This document shows positions 15,908 through 23,697 of a DNA stretch of 64,000 nucleotides, one piece after another; positions within the stretch are counted from its first letter, which is position 1, and each line of letters opens with the position of its first letter. The position numbers and the translations under genes were made by a program. The notes beneath the pieces were generated by a model. The model did not search any database. It had not been told where the DNA came from and was given only the letters and a program-made list of their open reading frames with translations. Origin of the DNA: Escherichia phage CAU_ECP01; sequence record PQ572755.1; one strand, 5' to 3'.

Positions 15908-16522
15908 ATGTTTAAAGTTAATACTTTTTATAAAATGAATTTTAAAAATGGGGATATTACTCCACGCCTTAAAAACATGTTCTCATATGACCTTATCGAG
16001 CCTTTTGAAGTTTTAGAAGTTACTGATGCCGGCTCAGTTTGTGAAATTAGAACTTCTGAAGGTAAAATTTATCAGGCAGGTGTCGGTAAATTCAGTAATT
16101 GTTTTACTTTAATATTCTCGACTGATTTAGATGAGCATTTTATTGAATGCCCTAACCCTAAGGTCTACGAAGTTCCACATCAAGAAATTAAGAAAAATGG
16201 CCCGCACGAATATACGAAGGTTGAAACTCCTCACGGCGTGATGTGGCGTCATAACTCTCCTTTTGGAAGTAAAGGAACATTTGCTCAACCGTCTAAACCT
16301 TATGACGATGAAAAATACATCGTCGTCTTTTTATCTGAACAGGGTACTCAAGACCGTGGATGCCAACGAAGTGGTTTACTAAGTGAACTTGAAGCTCATA
16401 ACCAAGCACGTGAATTCGTTGAGAAAAATCCTGGTTCTGAAGCTCTAGTCATGAAAGCAATTACTCAATATATCACTGCTCAACCTGTTGTTCATCCGGT
16501 AGAAATTAATTTCGTTAAGTAG
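15908..16522 (+). CDS. hypothetical protein
   Basis: 204-aa ORF. Confidence 0.5.
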   Translation: MFKVNTFYKMNFKNGDITPRLKNMFSYDLIEPFEVLEVTDAGSVCEIRTSEGKIYQAGVGKFSNCFTLIFSTDLDEHFIECPNPKVYEVPHQEIKKNGPHEYTKVETPHGVMWRHNSPFGSKGTFAQPSKPYDDEKYIVVFLSEQGTQDRGCQRSGLLSELEAHNQAREFVEKNPGSEALVMKAITQYITAQPVVHPVEINFVK

Positions 16523-16552
16523 TTTACATCCAAGGACGGATTAGAGTATAAT
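16522..16552 (+). promoter_or_regulatory. T4-type early promoter
   Basis: GTTTAC 16522-16527 directly after upstream stop TAG; TATAAT 16547-16552. Confidence 0.55.
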
Positions 16553-16576: not shown

Positions 16577-16774
16577 ATGAAATTTTTAATAGCACAAACA
16601 GTCCAATTAAAAGGTGTTGGAATTCCTGGGGTGATTTTTAAAGTTCTCCCTGAATTTAAAACCGCCGCTGGAATTATCAATGAAGCGTATGCTGTTCAAT
16701 GGGTTGATTGGACTTCTGACATACGTATGGGTAAAGAGTTATCTCCTATTAAAGGGTTGAAACATGTTGAATAA
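16577..16774 (+). CDS. hypothetical protein
   Basis: 65-aa ORF. Confidence 0.35.
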   Translation: MKFLIAQTVQLKGVGIPGVIFKVLPEFKTAAGIINEAYAVQWVDWTSDIRMGKELSPIKGLKHVE

Positions 16775-16976
16775 ATTAATCCAGAAATTGTTTGGTATGG
16801 AAATGATTGAAGTTACGTATCGTGTGACTGATGTAAGCCCATGGGCCCGAAAAGTTGAACCATATACTAAAACAATTAAAATGCTGAAATATGACGGTGG
16901 ATTATCTATCAAAGACCGTCTACCGGCTTATGGTCATTGGGCTGATGTTGAAATTATAAGTGTTAAAGATGCCTGA
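16764..16976 (+). CDS. hypothetical protein
   Basis: 70-aa ORF overlapping both neighbours. Confidence 0.35.
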   Translation: MLNKLIQKLFGMEMIEVTYRVTDVSPWARKVEPYTKTIKMLKYDGGLSIKDRLPAYGHWADVEIISVKDA

Positions 16977-17427
16977 GTTAGAGATTAGAAGTAATTTCAA
17001 GTGGCCATCATGCGCATTAAGTAATTTCGCCCAATGGCCTTTCGTCATGGATGGTATTCAATTCGGAGGTCTTGAAGGATTTCTCCAAGGATGTAAGGTG
17101 AAAAATGTTGAACAACAAAGACGTATATTTGGGCTGTCAGGACTGGCTGCACAGCAAGCTGGAAGGTCTTATGCAAGAGCTCAGGACCGTGGGACTCTCT
17201 TCTGGTTAGGAATTCCATTTTCAAGATACTCCGAAGCATGGAAAGAATTATACACAAATGCATATTTTGAAGCAGCGATCCAAAACAAGGGGTTTCGTGA
17301 CGCCTTACAAGCCTCTAAAGGAAAAATTTTGAAGCACAGCATGGCCAGCCACCTAACAAAAGATGATACAATATTAACCGAAGCCGAATTTATTGATGTG
17401 TTAAACCTATTAAGAGACTCTTTATGA
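16969..17427 (+). CDS. NADAR-domain (YbiA-like, DUF1768) protein, putative
   Basis: 152 aa from ATG 16969; motif LSNFAQWPFVMDGIQF...F.Q..K resembles E. coli YbiA DFSNFAAWPIKVDG...F.Q..K; alignment by eye only. Confidence 0.5.
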   Translation: MPELEIRSNFKWPSCALSNFAQWPFVMDGIQFGGLEGFLQGCKVKNVEQQRRIFGLSGLAAQQAGRSYARAQDRGTLFWLGIPFSRYSEAWKELYTNAYFEAAIQNKGFRDALQASKGKILKHSMASHLTKDDTILTEAEFIDVLNLLRDSL

Positions 17428-18248
17428 AGCCTACTATTTTGACTGATATCGATGGTGTATGTTTAAGCTGGCAATCTGGACTTCCTTATTTTGCCCAAAA
17501 ATATAATCTTCCATTAGAACATATTTTAAAAATGATTCAGGACGAAAAATTTATTTCTCCTGGTAAACTATTCAATACCGACGATAACCTCGGTAAACAA
17601 TTAATAGAAAAATATAATCGCTCTGATTTTATTCGTTACTTAGCGCCTTATTCGGATGCTCTTCGAGTTATCAATAAGCTAAAAGAAGACTATAATTTTG
17701 TAGCCGTGACGGCGCTAGGTGATTCAATTGATGCTCGATTGAATAGACAATTTAATTTGAATGCTTTGTTCCCAGGCGCTTTCTCTGAAGTAATGATGTG
17801 TGGTCATGATTCTTCAAAAGAACAATTATTCGAACTAGCCAAAACAAAATATAACGTGATTTGTTATGTTGACGATTTAGCTCATCACTGCAACCATGCG
17901 GCAGAAATTCTTAATGTACCAATTTATTGGTTGGCCCGTGGTGAACGTGATGATATTCCTCGCACTGCACAACGTGTACACACGTGGGATGATATTGAAT
18001 CTCGATTGGTTCCGCCAGAGCATAATTCAGATTCAGATCGTGAAGACCTTTTAAAACGATTGGCGGATTTGCTTAAAGAATCTGGTGCAACAAGTCCAGG
18101 TGCATGGCCTAATCAAATTGGCGGCCCCTCGACAACACGTACTCCATATACCTGGCGAACCCCAGGACCAACCGATATGCGGCCATGGTGGACGATTCAA
18201 AACTTTCCTTTAGATTCGTCTAAATGGACTTGGTCTATAAATTGTTAA
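17424..18248 (+). CDS. HAD-superfamily phosphatase-like protein with C-terminal Pro/Thr/Trp-rich extension
   Basis: 274 aa; motif I ILTDIDGV, downstream DD motif (CYVDDLAHH); start overlaps NADAR stop (ATGA). Confidence 0.45.
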   Translation: MKPTILTDIDGVCLSWQSGLPYFAQKYNLPLEHILKMIQDEKFISPGKLFNTDDNLGKQLIEKYNRSDFIRYLAPYSDALRVINKLKEDYNFVAVTALGDSIDARLNRQFNLNALFPGAFSEVMMCGHDSSKEQLFELAKTKYNVICYVDDLAHHCNHAAEILNVPIYWLARGERDDIPRTAQRVHTWDDIESRLVPPEHNSDSDREDLLKRLADLLKESGATSPGAWPNQIGGPSTTRTPYTWRTPGPTDMRPWWTIQNFPLDSSKWTWSINC

Positions 18249-18257
18249 GGGATACTT

Positions 18258-18527
18258 ATGTTTGTAGTTCATGATATTACAGATGGCAAAAACACCACAC
18301 GTGACTACGGTCACGTTAACATGTTCTTTCGAGACTGGCCATTGTTTCGTTCAGTAAAAGACGCAGAAATATTTAAAGAGTGTGTTGAACAAGGGTTCAT
18401 CTACATTTCAGAATATTACGTTGAAGGACTCGGTAAATGGATTACCACTTATCAGAAAACGCTGAAATCGCTTCTAGATGAAGTGGCTTATAATAGAACC
18501 GTAACCAAAATCGAGGACATCAAATGA
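18258..18527 (+). CDS. hypothetical protein
   Basis: 89-aa ORF; stop overlaps ligase start. Confidence 0.4.
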   Translation: MFVVHDITDGKNTTRDYGHVNMFFRDWPLFRSVKDAEIFKECVEQGFIYISEYYVEGLGKWITTYQKTLKSLLDEVAYNRTVTKIEDIK

Positions 18528-20017
18528 TTTTAGATATTTTAAACCAAATAGCTGCGATCGGTTCTACTAAAACAAAACAAGAAATCCTTAAGAAAAATAA
18601 GGACAACAAATTACTTGAACGTGTGTATCGTTTAACATATGCACGTGGTATCCAGTATTATATTAAGAAATGGCCAGGACCAGGTGAAAGGTCTCAAGCG
18701 TATGGTCTTCTTGAATTAGATGACATGTTGGATTTTATTGAGTTCACATTAGCCACTCGTAAACTCACTGGTAATGCTGCAATTAAAGAGCTCATGGGTT
18801 ATATCGCTGACGGTAAACCTGATGATGTAGAAGTCCTTCGTCGTGTAATGATGCGAGACCTTGAAGTAGGTGCTTCAGTGTCTATCGCGAATAAGGTGTG
18901 GCCTGGACTTATTCAATTGCAGCCACAGATGTTAGCATCTGCATATGATGAGAAATTGATTACTAAAAATATTAAATGGCCTGCATTTGCTCAATTAAAG
19001 GCAGATGGTGCTCGTTGTTTCGCTGAAGTTCGCGATGATGGCGTTCAATTCTTTTCTCGTGCTGGTAACGAATACCATGGTCTTACCCTATTAGCAGATG
19101 AACTAATGGAAATGACTAAAGAAGCCCGTGAAAGACACCCTAATGGGGTTTTAATCGACGGTGAATTGGTTTATCATTCATTTGATATTAAAAAGGCTGT
19201 GAGCTCAGGAAATGACCTGTCGTTCTTATTTGGCGATAATGAAGAATCCGAAGAAGTACAAGTTGCAGACCGTAGCACTTCAAATGGTTTAGCAAATAAA
19301 TCTCTTCAAGGGACTATTTCTCCTAAAGAAGCGGAAGGTATGGTTCTTCAAGCCTGGGACTATGTTCCTTTAGATGAAGTCTATTCTGACGGCAAAATTA
19401 AAGGTCAGAAATACGATGTTCGTTTTGCTGCTCTTGAAAATATGGCTGAAGGCTTTAAACGAATTGAACCTATCGAAAACCAGATAGTTCGTAATCTTGA
19501 CGAAGCTAAAGTGGTTTATAAAAAATATGTTGACCAAGGTCTTGAAGGTATTATCCTTAAAAACCGTGATTCATATTGGGAAAACAAACGCTCTAAGAAC
19601 CTAATTAAATTTAAAGAAGTTATTGATATCGCTTTAGAAGTTGTAGGATACTACGAACACTCTAAAGACCCTAACAAATTAGGTGGTGTCGAACTCGTAT
19701 CACGTTGTCGTCGTATTACAACCGATTGTGGTTCAGGGTTTAAAGATACAACTCATAAAACAGTTGACGGTGTAAAGGTTCTTATTCCTTTAGATGAGCG
19801 TCATGATTTAGACCGTGAACGATTAATGGCTGAAGCTCGTGAAGGTAAATTGATTGGACGTATTGCTGATTGCGAATGTAATGGTTGGGTTCATTCTAAA
19901 GGCCGTGAAGGTACTGTAGGTATTTTCCTTCCAATTATTAAAGGGTTCCGTTTTGATAAAACAGAAGCGGATTCATTTGAAGACGTATTTGGACCGTGGT
20001 CCCAGACAGGTTTATAA
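18524..20017 (+). CDS. 30: ATP-dependent DNA ligase
   Basis: 497 aa; N-terminus MILDILNQIAAIGSTKTKQEILKKNKDNKLLERVYRLTY matches T4 gp30; adenylation motif KADGAR. Confidence 0.95.
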   Translation: MILDILNQIAAIGSTKTKQEILKKNKDNKLLERVYRLTYARGIQYYIKKWPGPGERSQAYGLLELDDMLDFIEFTLATRKLTGNAAIKELMGYIADGKPDDVEVLRRVMMRDLEVGASVSIANKVWPGLIQLQPQMLASAYDEKLITKNIKWPAFAQLKADGARCFAEVRDDGVQFFSRAGNEYHGLTLLADELMEMTKEARERHPNGVLIDGELVYHSFDIKKAVSSGNDLSFLFGDNEESEEVQVADRSTSNGLANKSLQGTISPKEAEGMVLQAWDYVPLDEVYSDGKIKGQKYDVRFAALENMAEGFKRIEPIENQIVRNLDEAKVVYKKYVDQGLEGIILKNRDSYWENKRSKNLIKFKEVIDIALEVVGYYEHSKDPNKLGGVELVSRCRRITTDCGSGFKDTTHKTVDGVKVLIPLDERHDLDRERLMAEAREGKLIGRIADCECNGWVHSKGREGTVGIFLPIIKGFRFDKTEADSFEDVFGPWSQTGL

Positions 20018-22700: not shown

Positions 22701-22709
22701 ACCCCTAAA

Positions 22710-22733
22710 GGGAGACAACGTCTCCCTTTTTTT
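22710..22733. terminator. terminator between convergent genes (GGGAGA-CAACG-UCUCCC plus T7)
   Basis: Hairpin 22710-22726 followed by TTTTTTT; lies between the plus-strand ORF and gene 54. Confidence 0.7.
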
Positions 22734-22734
22734 C

Positions 22735-23697
22735 TTATAGACCTAAAACTCTTGATGCAGAATTCACCACACCTGTCAATGTGTTTATATTAGACACACC
22801 TCCAGCAGTCCCACCTAATCTAGAAAGTCTTGATACTGCACTTCCTAGACCAGAATCATTCTGATTATTTCCAAACATTCCTGAAACACTACTAATAAGT
22901 CCTGATTCCAGCCATTCTAAAGCAGCCTGTCTATTTACAGCACCTGATTGCATAACGCGATAAGCAAATGTTACATCAAAAACTGTTATCTGATTATCAC
23001 CATCATACGTTAACTCAGGAGAAGAGACACTAACAGGAATACATCCAGTGAACATGACGGCGGTATGTGGTAAACCATTTCGTGCATGTAAATTAACCTG
23101 AATATCTGCTTCGACGTCTTGTGGTAAAGCGCGAAGACCTGTTACAGGGTCTTGGACCGAGTTTACCCAGTCTTGCATTGCTCTAAAGTTAGATGCTTCG
23201 GAATCCATTCTAAAGCTTATTACTAACGGGTCCATTTCACGGCCGGTAATTCTGATGTTCGGGGAGTTATAGTTGAAATCTGTTTCATACGATAATCGAT
23301 TCTCAGGCATTTTTACAGAATAAATCATTAAACCTGTATTATTATATGCCATATTGAAGAAGTCTATCAGATAAGATCCTACCGTGAACTCACCTAACAA
23401 GCTTTGTACCGTACGTTGGCTCATTGCTCCAATCAGATATTTACTTATACCTGATTTTCGAATTAATTTCTGTGTTCCTGCTGTAATCAGGGTTGTTACG
23501 CCCTGATTGATATCACCTTGAGACAATCCTAACCAATCAGAATCCAACCCTAAGTTATTATAAGCAAAACTACCAATTGACGAAATTAGTGAAGATGATT
23601 TGGTCGATGGCGTAGTAGCAAATACACAACTAAACATATTGTTTCGTTGGAAATCTGCATTTATAGCTTGGTTATTAAATTCTTCTAAAGAGTACAT
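22735..23697 (-). CDS. 54: baseplate tail-tube initiator gp54
   Basis: 320 aa (T4 gp54 320 aa); position and order as in T4. Confidence 0.75.
   Translation of the reverse strand: MYSLEEFNNQAINADFQRNNMFSCVFATTPSTKSSSLISSIGSFAYNNLGLDSDWLGLSQGDINQGVTTLITAGTQKLIRKSGISKYLIGAMSQRTVQSLLGEFTVGSYLIDFFNMAYNNTGLMIYSVKMPENRLSYETDFNYNSPNIRITGREMDPLVISFRMDSEASNFRAMQDWVNSVQDPVTGLRALPQDVEADIQVNLHARNGLPHTAVMFTGCIPVSVSSPELTYDGDNQITVFDVTFAYRVMQSGAVNRQAALEWLESGLISSVSGMFGNNQNDSGLGSAVSRLSRLGGTAGGVSNINTLTGVVNSASRVLGL

What the first reader, a model, noticed from the sequence alone, without database searches (positions are those of the whole stretch)
16969..18248. Translationally coupled NADAR-like and HAD-like gene pair upstream of ligase and the Alt ADP-ribosyltransferase
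ORF 16969-17427 carries the SNFA.WP...DG...F.Q..K signature of NADAR/YbiA (DUF1768) enzymes, and its stop overlaps (ATGA) the start of a HAD-motif ORF (DxDGV ... DD) with an unusual Pro/Thr/Trp-rich tail. NADAR enzymes are established as N-glycosidases, including reversal of guanine ADP-ribosylation in DarT2-type systems. A phage that itself deploys an ADP-ribosyltransferase (alt, 3 kb downstream) and encodes a NADAR plus a phosphatase could be countering host ADP-ribosylation-based defence or processing ADP-ribose or nucleotide intermediates. This may correspond to conserved but uncharacterised T4 30.x genes.
Basis: partly seen in the sequence, partly recalled or inferred. Interest (0 to 1): 0.6.

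Follow-up and report, generated by a model that had tools for sequence, protein, structure and literature searches.

The report
Known anti-DarT NADAR plus uncharacterised phosphatase
These are the orthologues of phage T4 genes 30.3 and 30.2: the first is AdfN, a published enzyme that strips host-added ADP-ribose off phage DNA, and the second is an uncharacterised phosphatase that tracks the DNA ligase gene rather than AdfN.

Summary
ORF 16969-17427 and ORF 17424-18248 exist, overlap by ATGA, and have the stated motifs. The window is a T4-like, RB69-group phage, and the pair is T4 30.3/30.2.

Gene 30.3 is already solved. It is AdfN, a NADAR DNA ADP-ribosylglycohydrolase that removes DarT1-made guanine ADP-ribose and counters DarTG1 (Nat Commun 2025; Toxins 2024). 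The window allele is 95% identical to T4 AdfN. It is full length, lacks the RB69 frameshift, and keeps E36, K43 and H123.

Gene 30.2 is a HAD-superfamily enzyme with an intact DxD/T/K/DD catalytic set and a helical C1 cap. It ends in a helix and a disordered, fast-evolving tail. Its family grades into the 5'(3')-deoxyribonucleotidase (NT5C) family. Its substrate is untested.

The two genes are not a functional module:
- Overlapping stops and starts are the rule throughout this cluster.
- NADAR abuts the HAD gene in only 19 of 78 related loci, and lies about 59 kb away in Klebsiella phage Roth04.
- In T4 transposon sequencing under DarTG1, 30.3 is lost (log2FC -7.25) while 30.2 is unaffected (-0.12).
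- The HAD gene's constant neighbour is DNA ligase (72/78 and 71/74 loci).

Verdict: ordinary and largely already known. The residual interest lies in gp30.2.

The parts
16969..17427 (+). adfN (T4 gene 30.3 orthologue). A 152-aa phage-type NADAR DNA ADP-ribosylglycohydrolase. Catalytic E36 (17074-17076), K43 (17095-17097) and phage-type H123 (17335-17337). The C-terminal helix, residues 138-151, is intact.
   Evidence: PF08010 at E=4.5e-69. 95% identical to T4 gp30.3 and 97% to the truncated RB69 allele, and it lacks the RB69 T insertion. AF2 pLDDT 93, with Foldseek top hits YbiA 2b3w, 8bau and 8bat. The function of the T4 orthologue is published.
17424..18248 (+). T4 gene 30.2 orthologue. A 274-aa HAD-superfamily phosphohydrolase with a helical C1 cap (about residues 12-90). 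Motif I is D8/D10 (17445-17453), motif II T96 (17709-17711), motif III K132 (17817-17819), motif IV D150-D151 (17871-17876). W16 (17469-17471) is invariant.
18030..18245 (+). C-terminal extension of gp30.2: a helix at residues 203-220, then a disordered Pro/Thr/Trp-rich tail at about residues 225-274. The tail is of the RB69 type.
   Evidence: pLDDT is below 50 from about residue 231. The tail is absent or different in many homologues of 196-212 aa. It is 92% identical to the RB69 tail. It shares only an in-frame TWRTPG with T4 and is not a frameshifted copy of the T4 tail.
17424..17427 (+). ATGA stop/start overlap between adfN and 30.2.
   Evidence: T4 has the same overlap. Seven of seven successive junctions from 30.6 to alt.1 in T4 also overlap, so this is generic gene packing.
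16764..16976 (+). gp30.4 orthologue (70 aa, phrog_2042). Its stop overlaps the adfN start by 8 nt. This is a context gene.
   Evidence: In T4 it is the only other gene significantly depleted under DarTG1 (log2FC -1.79, adjusted P 0.014).
18524..20017 (+). Gene 30, ATP-dependent DNA ligase. It is the conserved neighbour of the 30.2 HAD gene. Gene 30.1 (DUF3045, 18258-18527) lies between them here.
   Evidence: HAD-ligase adjacency holds in 72/78 HAD-anchored loci and 71/74 ligase-anchored loci.
16523..16552 (+). Sigma-70-like promoter match (TTTACA-18-TATAAT, 11 of 12) upstream of the overlapping run 30.5-30.4-adfN-30.2.
   Evidence: The total number of promoter-like sites in the region is not above the shuffled expectation, so this is only a candidate.

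Best explanation
These are two independent early genes of the T4 30.x cluster that happen to abut.

(1) ORF 16969-17427 is adfN (gp30.3). It is a minimal NADAR-fold N-glycosidase that hydrolyses the bond between ADP-ribose and guanine N2 in phage DNA modified by the host DarT1 toxin. That restores replication in DarTG1-carrying hosts. The chemistry and phenotype are shown for the T4 orthologue. For this allele they are inferred from 95% identity, full length and intact catalytic residues, so this phage, unlike RB69, is predicted to resist DarTG1.

(2) ORF 17424-18248 is gp30.2. It is a Mg-dependent HAD phosphohydrolase: Asp8 is the nucleophile, Asp10 the general acid/base, and T96, K132 and D150/D151 complete the site. 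A helical C1 cap closes over a small substrate. The substrate is most likely a (deoxy)nucleoside monophosphate, as in 5'(3')-deoxyribonucleotidases. The gene is expressed with the replication and ligase genes. Its C-terminal helix and disordered tail are variable appendages. The catalytic competence and fold are shown computationally. The substrate and biological role are inferred.

The ATGA overlap reflects the compact packing of this gene run, not a shared pathway.
For: AdfN:
- PF08010 at E=4.5e-69.
- NADAR fold.
- E36, K43 and H123 are invariant in 43 homologues.
- No RB69 frameshift.
- For the T4 enzyme, published work shows in-vitro G-ADPr hydrolysis, necessity and sufficiency against DarTG1 during T-even infection, and loss of function on C-terminal truncation.
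- Independent Tn-seq gives log2FC -7.25 under DarTG1.

gp30.2 structure and family:
- Full HAD motif set is conserved.
- Confident AF2 model with a C1 cap.
- The best Foldseek TM-scores normalised on the target are 3bwv at 0.66-0.70 and cdN/mdN at 0.61-0.64.
- The only HAD hit in the profile search of PDB sequences is cdN (E 0.79, not significant). It aligns D-x-D-G-V-x-x-x-F/W-x-S-G-L.
- NT5C is the recurrent specific Pfam hit. It matches 7 of 38 members, and distant members reach 21.6-24.6 bits against a cut-off of 24.8 over the whole profile.

gp30.2 neighbours:
- Ligase lies next to it in 72/78 and 71/74 loci. In three of those the gene order is swapped.
- Distant members sit next to ribonucleotide reductase, RNase H, or clamp, clamp loader and regA.

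Independence of the two genes:
- NADAR abuts the HAD gene in 19/78 loci and lies within 4 kb in 37/78.
- The two are about 59 kb apart in Klebsiella phage Roth04.
- T4 30.2 insertions are neutral under DarTG1 (log2FC -0.12, P 0.61, 71 TA sites), in M9 (-0.10), and on K-12 (72 of 72 sites hit).
Against: - No Pfam or NCBIfam HAD model reaches its curated cut-off for the window protein.
- Nucleotidase specificity rests on sub-threshold profile matches and gene neighbourhood.
- gp30.2 has no phenotype in any T4 screen condition I could read, so its role is unknown.
- AdfN and gp30.2 occur in nearly identical numbers of phage records with the same host-genus profile (1510 against 1439 records). This is compatible with a looser functional link.
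- The published 'unknown T-even factor' needed for full AdfN activity is still unidentified.
- The locus sets contain many closely related genomes, so the counts are not phylogenetically independent.
Confidence: 0.7

Rival explanations
1. NADAR and HAD form a two-enzyme counter-defence module. In this reading gp30.2 is the unidentified T-even factor that potentiates AdfN, or it dephosphorylates or disposes of the ADP-ribose-derived products released by AdfN.
For: - The genes overlap by ATGA, and T4 has the same arrangement.
- When a NADAR is nearby it always lies 5' of the HAD gene on the same strand.
- The two genes have near-identical record counts and host distribution across phages.
- AdfN needs an unknown T-even-encoded factor for full activity. 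RB69, which supports ectopic AdfN, does carry 30.2.
Against: - In the T4 Tn-seq under DarTG1, only 30.3 and 30.4 are significant. Gene 30.2 gives log2FC -0.12, P 0.61, with 71 sites.
- The genes abut in only 19/78 loci, and no NADAR lies within 4 kb in 41/78.
- They are about 59 kb apart in Roth04.
- Overlapping junctions are universal in this cluster.
- Distant members of the HAD family sit with RNR or clamp-loader genes, with no NADAR.
Confidence: 0.08
2. gp30.2 is a nick- or end-cleaning partner of the phage DNA ligase. It would act as a DNA 3'-phosphatase-type HAD enzyme, analogous to the phosphatase domain of polynucleotide kinase-phosphatase, preparing ligatable ends.
For: - The strongest conserved linkage of the gene is to ligase: 72/78 and 71/74 loci, down to 34% ligase identity. 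In three loci the order is inverted but the genes remain adjacent.
- The PNKP and T4 PseT phosphatases are DxD HAD enzymes (established knowledge).
- One family member (P0289) gives a weak match to the polynucleotide kinase PHROG (E 5e-4) and is fused to a DNA-polymerase-annotated PHROG domain.
Against: - The confident AF2 model has a roughly 75-residue helical C1 cap. Capped HADs generally take small molecules, whereas macromolecule-acting HADs such as PNKP are capless (established knowledge of the HAD superfamily).
- The specific sequence affinities are to NT5C.
- T4 already encodes PseT.
- More distant members lie next to RNR or clamp-loader genes rather than ligase.
- Conserved gene order in T4-like replication regions may be inherited rather than functional.
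Confidence: 0.12
3. gp30.2 is an anti-defence enzyme of its own. It would dephosphorylate a host-made nucleotide toxin or immune signal unrelated to DarT.
For: - It is non-essential in the laboratory yet kept in about 1400 phage records.
- It sits in an accessory early-gene cluster that already holds one counter-defence gene, adfN.
- It has a capped, small-molecule-type active site.
Against: No direct evidence. It is not named as a hit in the main text of the HIDEN-SEQ paper (zero mentions of 30.2), and I read its values only for three conditions. It has no PADLOC or anti-defence family match. Its neighbourhoods elsewhere are replication and nucleotide metabolism genes.
Confidence: 0.08

Closest known systems
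T4 AdfN (gp30.3), anti-DarT factor NADAR (Johannesman et al., Nat Commun 2025; Toxins 2024 16:208)
   Same: Orthologue: 152 aa, 95% identical, same genomic position, and the same ATGA overlap with 30.2. It has the same catalytic E36 and K43 and the phage-type H123, and the C-terminal helix is present.
   Different: A handful of substitutions. It is carried by an RB69-group phage whose type member has a frameshifted, inactive allele. The activity of this allele has not been measured.
DarG1 NADAR antitoxins (e.g. Geobacter lovleyi 8bat) and E. coli YbiA (2b3w)
   Same: Same YbiA/NADAR fold (Foldseek probability 0.97-1.00). Same chemistry, hydrolysis of guanine-N2-ADP-ribose.
   Different: The phage protein is the bare core, with no N-terminal extension. 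It has His where DarG1 has Asp and YbiA has Glu. It is not linked to a DarT gene. It fails as an antitoxin in uninfected cells. Pfam NADAR PF08719 does not match it; it falls in PF08010.
T4 gp30.2 (conserved hypothetical; phrog_420)
   Same: Orthologue. The HAD domain is about 86% identical, and the gene has the same position between 30.3 and 30.1/ligase.
   Different: The C-terminal tail is unrelated at the DNA level apart from TWRTPG. The window has the RB69-type tail and lacks the GIEYLxxxPT motif found at the end of many homologues.
5'(3')-deoxyribonucleotidases cdN/mdN and the NT5C family (PF06941; PDB 2jao, 1q92, 3bwv)
   Different: The matches are sub-threshold (cut-off 24.8 bits), and the window protein itself does not hit NT5C. 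It carries an extra C-terminal helix and tail. No activity data exist.
T4 PseT / PNKP 3'-phosphatase domain (HAD, DxDxT)
   Same: HAD catalytic core, phage-encoded, and DNA/RNA-repair context with ligases.
   Different: Those enzymes are capless and act on polynucleotide ends. gp30.2 has a C1 cap. There is no significant sequence match.

Membership tests
NADAR superfamily | YbiA-type alpha+beta fold (five core helices flanked by small sheets) | tested here: met
   The AF2 model has pLDDT 93.1. Its top three Foldseek PDB hits are YbiA 2b3w (E 6.7e-5, TM 0.67), PnNADAR 8bau and G. lovleyi NADAR 8bat. The next hits are noise.
NADAR superfamily | Conserved catalytic Glu and Lys of the E-x-x-x-Q-x-x-K motif (E36 and K43 in T4 AdfN) | tested here: met
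   E36 and K43 are present and invariant in 43 homologues.
NADAR superfamily | Match to the curated Pfam NADAR model PF08719 | tested here: not met
   No PF08719 hit at E<=1. The protein matches the phage-specific model PF08010 at E=4.5e-69. One homologue (P0178) carries both annotations.
Phage NADAR / AdfN family | Histidine in the last strand in place of Glu or Asp | tested here: met
   H123 (KHS) is invariant. The feature is defined in PMC11125620.
Phage NADAR / AdfN family | Intact C-terminal helix, which is lost in the inactive RB69 allele | tested here: met
   The protein is 152 aa, the T insertion is absent, and the model has a helix at residues 138-151.
Phage NADAR / AdfN family | Hydrolysis of guanine-linked ADP-ribose on DNA, and protection from DarTG1 during infection | not testable with these tools
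   Shown for the T4 orthologue and inferred here from 95% identity.
HAD superfamily (phosphatase branch) | Motif I DxD, motif II Thr/Ser, motif III Lys, motif IV DD | tested here: met
   D8, D10 and K132 are invariant. T96 (Ser in a few members) and D150/D151 are conserved in at least 90% of 38 homologues. The second Asp distinguishes phosphatases from dehalogenases (established knowledge).
HAD superfamily (phosphatase branch) | Rossmannoid HAD core fold with a cap module | tested here: met
HAD superfamily (phosphatase branch) | Curated profile match above threshold (Pfam or NCBIfam) | tested here: not met
   HAD_2 gives 15.6 bits against a cut-off of 23.8. TIGR01428 gives 12.5 bits against 125.4.
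NT5C 5'(3')-deoxyribonucleotidase family | PF06941 match above the gathering score, and nucleotide-binding cap residues | tested here: inconclusive
   The window protein gives no hit. Seven of 38 homologues are sub-threshold (best E 0.0029). Distant members reach 21.6, 22.8 and 24.6 bits against a cut-off of 24.8 over the full profile. The DxDGVxxxW-x-SGL stretch aligns to cdN.
NT5C 5'(3')-deoxyribonucleotidase family | dNMP phosphatase activity | not testable with these tools
   No biochemical data were found for any gp30.2 homologue.
Functional NADAR-HAD gene module | Conserved adjacency across lineages | tested here: not met
   The genes abut in 19/78 loci, lie within 4 kb in 37/78, and no NADAR lies within 4 kb in 41/78. 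They are about 59 kb apart in Roth04.
Functional NADAR-HAD gene module | Both genes required for the same phenotype | tested here: not met
   Published T4 Tn-seq under DarTG1: 30.3 at log2FC -7.25 (adjusted P 0) and 30.2 at -0.12 (P 0.61).

The most novel reading that the evidence does not exclude
gp30.2 defines a large, unstudied family of phage nucleotidase-like HAD enzymes. The family has about 1000 representatives at 50% identity. Its members are anchored to the replication machinery: next to DNA ligase in essentially all enterobacterial, Aeromonas, Acinetobacter and Vibrio T4-like phages, and next to RNR, RNase H or clamp-loader genes in more distant phages. In this reading the enzyme removes a specific nucleotide that would otherwise poison ligation or replication, possibly a host-made or damage-derived one. 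That would be a new replication-associated pool-sanitising or counter-defence activity.
Probability: 0.2. Interest if true: 0.5.

Novelty: already known. Interest (0 to 1): 0.25.

Why it matters
For adfN the matter is settled. It explains why most T-even phages resist DarTG1, and the intact allele here predicts that this RB69-group phage does too. That is useful for host-range prediction but not new.

What remains open is gp30.2. It is a catalytically intact phosphatase retained in about 1400 sequenced phages, and it is almost invariably next to the DNA ligase gene, yet it has no phenotype in current screens. Finding its substrate would assign function to one of the most widespread 'hypothetical' genes of T4-like phages. 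It would also show whether phage replication modules include a dedicated nucleotidase.

The analysis also narrows the search for the missing T-even factor that AdfN needs. gp30.2 is an unlikely candidate. The tiny upstream gene 30.4 deserves a non-polar test.

Tried and rejected
1. My first NADAR HMM gave weak hits on gp30.7. This was an artefact of chimeric database proteins such as P0114 (PF08010+PF06919) in the seed. A clean HMM built from A4 was used afterwards.
2. I tested the 660-aa protein P0334 (HAD at residues 507-647) as a possible ligase-HAD fusion. hhalign against the ligase alignment gave probability 0.2%, so it was rejected.
3. I asked whether the odd tail is a frameshifted version of the T4 tail. 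It is not. It is the RB69-type tail, in frame, and shares only TWRTPG with T4.
4. Searches of PDB sequences gave nothing significant: none for AdfN, and for gp30.2 only cdN at E about 0.8. NCBIfam, PADLOC and Rfam also gave nothing useful.
5. Literature searches for gp30.2 or gene 30.2 found nothing relevant. The NARP3 paper has no bearing on it.
6. The profile search of the 5.8-billion-protein set returned only T4-like relatives among the listed hits. The exhaustive representative search was needed to see the wider family.
7. Promoter and terminator scans are not above the shuffled expectation, so only one strong promoter-like site is mentioned.
8. I considered a functional link to Alt. It was dropped because the only evidence is conserved synteny, and NADARs are reported to act on nucleobase-linked (guanine, some on cytosine) ADP-ribose, whereas Alt modifies arginine on proteins.
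Full report
**What is there.** The region lies in a T4-like phage genome. The 1.9-kb stretch around the finding is 95-97% identical to a set of Escherichia and Shigella phages, one of which is classified in Mosigvirus, the RB69 genus. The gene order is gp31, rIII, 30.9 to 30.1, ligase (gene 30), alt.1, alt. They overlap by ATGA. The first matches Pfam PF08010 'Bacteriophage protein GP30.3' at E=4.5e-69. The second matches PHROG 420 at E=1.5e-78. In the T4 record they correspond to genes 30.3 and 30.2, which have the same ATGA overlap.

**Gene 30.3 is a solved gene.** Full-text searches show that T4 gp30.3 was named AdfN, anti-DarT factor NADAR (Johannesman et al., Nat Commun 2025, PMC11825919).
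- It was mapped by crossing DarTG1-resistant T2 and T4 into the sensitive RB69.
- It is sufficient in trans to restore RB69 plaquing on DarTG1 hosts.
- Its AlphaFold model matches the NADAR structures, and mutation of E36 or K43 impairs it.
- The purified protein removes ADP-ribose from DarT1-modified DNA.
- An earlier study showed that T4 gp30.3 hydrolyses guanosine-ADP-ribose but not thymidine-ADP-ribose in vitro. It also defined phage NADARs by a histidine replacing the catalytic Glu/Asp of the last strand (PMC11125620).
- A T4 transposon-sequencing study independently found 30.3 insertions 'completely lost' under DarTG1 (bioRxiv 10.1101/2025.11.20.689424).
- RB69 is sensitive because a T insertion at nucleotide 411 truncates the protein by 15 residues.

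**The window allele of adfN looks functional.** It is 95% identical to T4 AdfN and 97% identical to the truncated RB69 protein over their shared length. It is full length and lacks the RB69 insertion: RB69 reads ACTTGA where the window and T4 read AC-CGA. E36, K43 and H123 are present and invariant in 43 homologues. My AF2 model (pLDDT 93) hits YbiA, the Phytophthora NADAR and the G. lovleyi DarG1-type NADAR as its top three PDB matches. Nothing else is credible below them. The curated Pfam NADAR model itself does not match, so at the profile level the phage family is a separate, divergent branch. I infer, but cannot test, that this phage resists DarTG1.

**The closest specific affinity of gp30.2 is to NT5C, the 5'(3')-deoxyribonucleotidase family.**
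- NT5C is the only specific Pfam family hit repeatedly (7 of 38 members).
- Distant family members match the entire NT5C profile at 21.6-24.6 bits against a cut-off of 24.8.
- The only HAD hit when the family profile is run against PDB sequences is mouse cdN. That alignment pairs D-x-D-G-V-x-x-x-W-x-S-G-L with the cdN motif, including the aromatic residue six positions after the second Asp. It is not statistically significant (E about 0.8).
- The putative deoxyribonucleotidase 3bwv has the highest target-normalised TM-score and sequence identity.

Because capped HADs generally act on small molecules, a nucleotide monophosphate is the most likely substrate. This is inference, and no biochemical work on gp30.2 was found.

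**The tail.** Residues 203-220 form a predicted helix, and residues from about 225 to 274 are disordered. Many homologues end at about 200 aa. Others have unrelated tails, often ending in a GIEYLxxxPT-like motif that the window lacks. The window tail is the RB69 type (92% identity with a 3-aa indel). It shares only an in-frame TWRTPG with T4, so it is not a frameshift product. I treat it as a fast-evolving appendage of unknown role.

**Are the two genes a module? The evidence says no.**
- Start/stop overlaps are generic here. All seven successive junctions from 30.6 to alt.1 in T4 overlap by 1, 4 or 8 nt, and the same holds in the window's close relative.
- In 78 viral loci found with the gp30.2 profile, a NADAR abuts the HAD gene in 19 and lies within 4 kb in 37 (always upstream, on the same strand). 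In 41 there is none within 4 kb.
- In Klebsiella phage Roth04 the NADAR sits in the tRNA region about 59 kb from the HAD gene, while the HAD gene remains next to ligase and alt.
- Extended Data Table 6 of the T4 Tn-seq study (sheet 'resampling_Control_vs_DarTG1') lists two significant genes. Gene 30.3 has log2FC -7.25 (adjusted P 0) and 30.4 has -1.79 (adjusted P 0.014).
- In the same sheet, 30.2, with 71 TA sites, has log2FC -0.12 (P 0.61).
- Gene 30.2 is also neutral in M9 against LB (-0.10), and all 72 of its sites are hit on K-12.

So gp30.2 is not needed for AdfN-mediated DarTG1 resistance in T4. The one observation pointing the other way is that both genes occur in almost the same number of phage records, with the same host-genus profile (1510 against 1439). 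Common descent within T4-like phages explains that equally well.

**What gp30.2 does track.** Its constant neighbour is the DNA ligase gene. From the HAD side, 72 of 78 loci have gene 30 immediately downstream on the same strand, often with no gene between. From the ligase side, I used a profile of 16 diverse ligases. Of 74 loci with enough upstream sequence, 71 have the HAD gene within 3.5 kb. These include KVP40-like genomes and three distant loci (ligase 34-35% identical) in which the order is inverted but the genes stay adjacent.

An exhaustive search of 1.84 billion representatives finds 1038 family members at E<=0.001. For those I could place:
- one follows the two ribonucleotide reductase subunits;
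- one lies near RNase H and PhoH;
- one follows clamp, clamp loader and regA;
- one is near a P-loop kinase;
- one is a fusion whose N-terminal part matches a PHROG annotated as DNA polymerase.

The theme is replication and nucleotide metabolism, which fits an NT5C-like nucleotidase. The ligase linkage also keeps alive a minority reading of a nick- or end-cleaning phosphatase, but the cap argues against that. These locus counts include many related genomes and are not phylogenetically corrected.

The motif reading was accurate, and the functional guess for the NADAR was right. It is, however, already published, and the relevant toxin is DarT1 (guanine), not DarT2 (thymidine). The proposed DarT co-expression rescue is known to fail for T4 AdfN in uninfected cells even though the enzyme is active. 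Two groups reported this and attribute it to a missing T-even factor or to substrate context. The suggested cooperation with the HAD gene and the connection to Alt are not supported.

**Verdict.** The finding consists of a known counter-defence gene and a known but uncharacterised conserved gene. Novelty: already known. Interest is low to moderate at 0.25. It rests on gp30.2's unexplained, near-universal association with the ligase gene, and on 30.4 as a lead for the missing AdfN potentiator.

Noticed in passing
window 16764-16976 (+): The 70-aa gp30.4 orthologue overlaps the adfN start by 8 nt. In the T4 Tn-seq data, 30.4 is the only gene besides 30.3 that is significantly depleted under DarTG1 (log2FC -1.79, adjusted P 0.014), and it is neutral in M9 (-0.05). 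It lies upstream of the NADAR in all 15 T-even-type loci and is undetectable in the 23 more distant NADAR loci. It evolves fast: the window protein is about 47% identical to the T4-type copies. The signal is either a polar effect on adfN or a candidate for the unidentified T-even factor that AdfN needs.
   Followed up: partly
window 16969-17427, other + frames: The T4 annotation carries an internal out-of-frame gene 30.3' (75 aa) inside 30.3. In the window that frame is open for only about 34 codons, so 30.3' is not conserved and is probably not a real gene.
   Followed up: partly
homologues of window 16969-17427: Public databases hold many truncated or chimeric adfN products. There are versions of 126, 109 and about 90 aa, and fusions carrying the gp30.7, gp30.8 or DUF2883 families (PF06919, PF06019, PF11097). 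The 30.3-30.8 stretch therefore looks like a deletion and recombination hot spot, and adfN loss is recurrent, not unique to RB69.
   Followed up: no
window 15908-16522 (+): A 204-aa ORF sits where T4 has the 96-aa gene 30.6. It is annotated as hypothetical in the close relative OR062947. I did not characterise it.
   Followed up: no
window 16523-16552 (+): A near-consensus sigma-70 promoter match (TTTACA, 18-nt spacer, TATAAT; 11 of 12) lies just upstream of the overlapping gene run 30.5-30.4-adfN-30.2. The overall promoter-like count in the region is not above the shuffled expectation.
   Followed up: no
window 22707-22729: A strong terminator-like hairpin (10-bp stem, AAAGGGAGAC...GTCTCCCTTT, followed by a T run) lies between the end of the rightward alt-region genes and the leftward ORF 22735-23697. 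It could serve as a terminator where the two transcription directions converge.
   Followed up: no
L161:4001-5776 (protein P0289) and L165:4001-4603 (P0262): One distant gp30.2-family member is fused behind a domain matching a PHROG annotated as DNA polymerase (E 1.7e-34). Another lies directly after the two ribonucleotide reductase subunit genes.
   Followed up: partly
L167 (Klebsiella phage Roth04 68066-68515): In this T4-like Klebsiella phage the gp30.3-type NADAR gene sits inside the tRNA gene cluster, a few genes from an annotated acb1 (anti-CBASS) fragment, and far from the ligase region. NADAR genes therefore move among accessory and anti-defence islands.
   Followed up: no
L153:3480-5754, L155, L156: In three distant T4-like metagenomic phages the order is ligase, a small ORF, then HAD, instead of HAD then ligase. 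In L153 the flanking genes are PTH2, endonuclease VII, PhoH and UvsY.
   Followed up: partly
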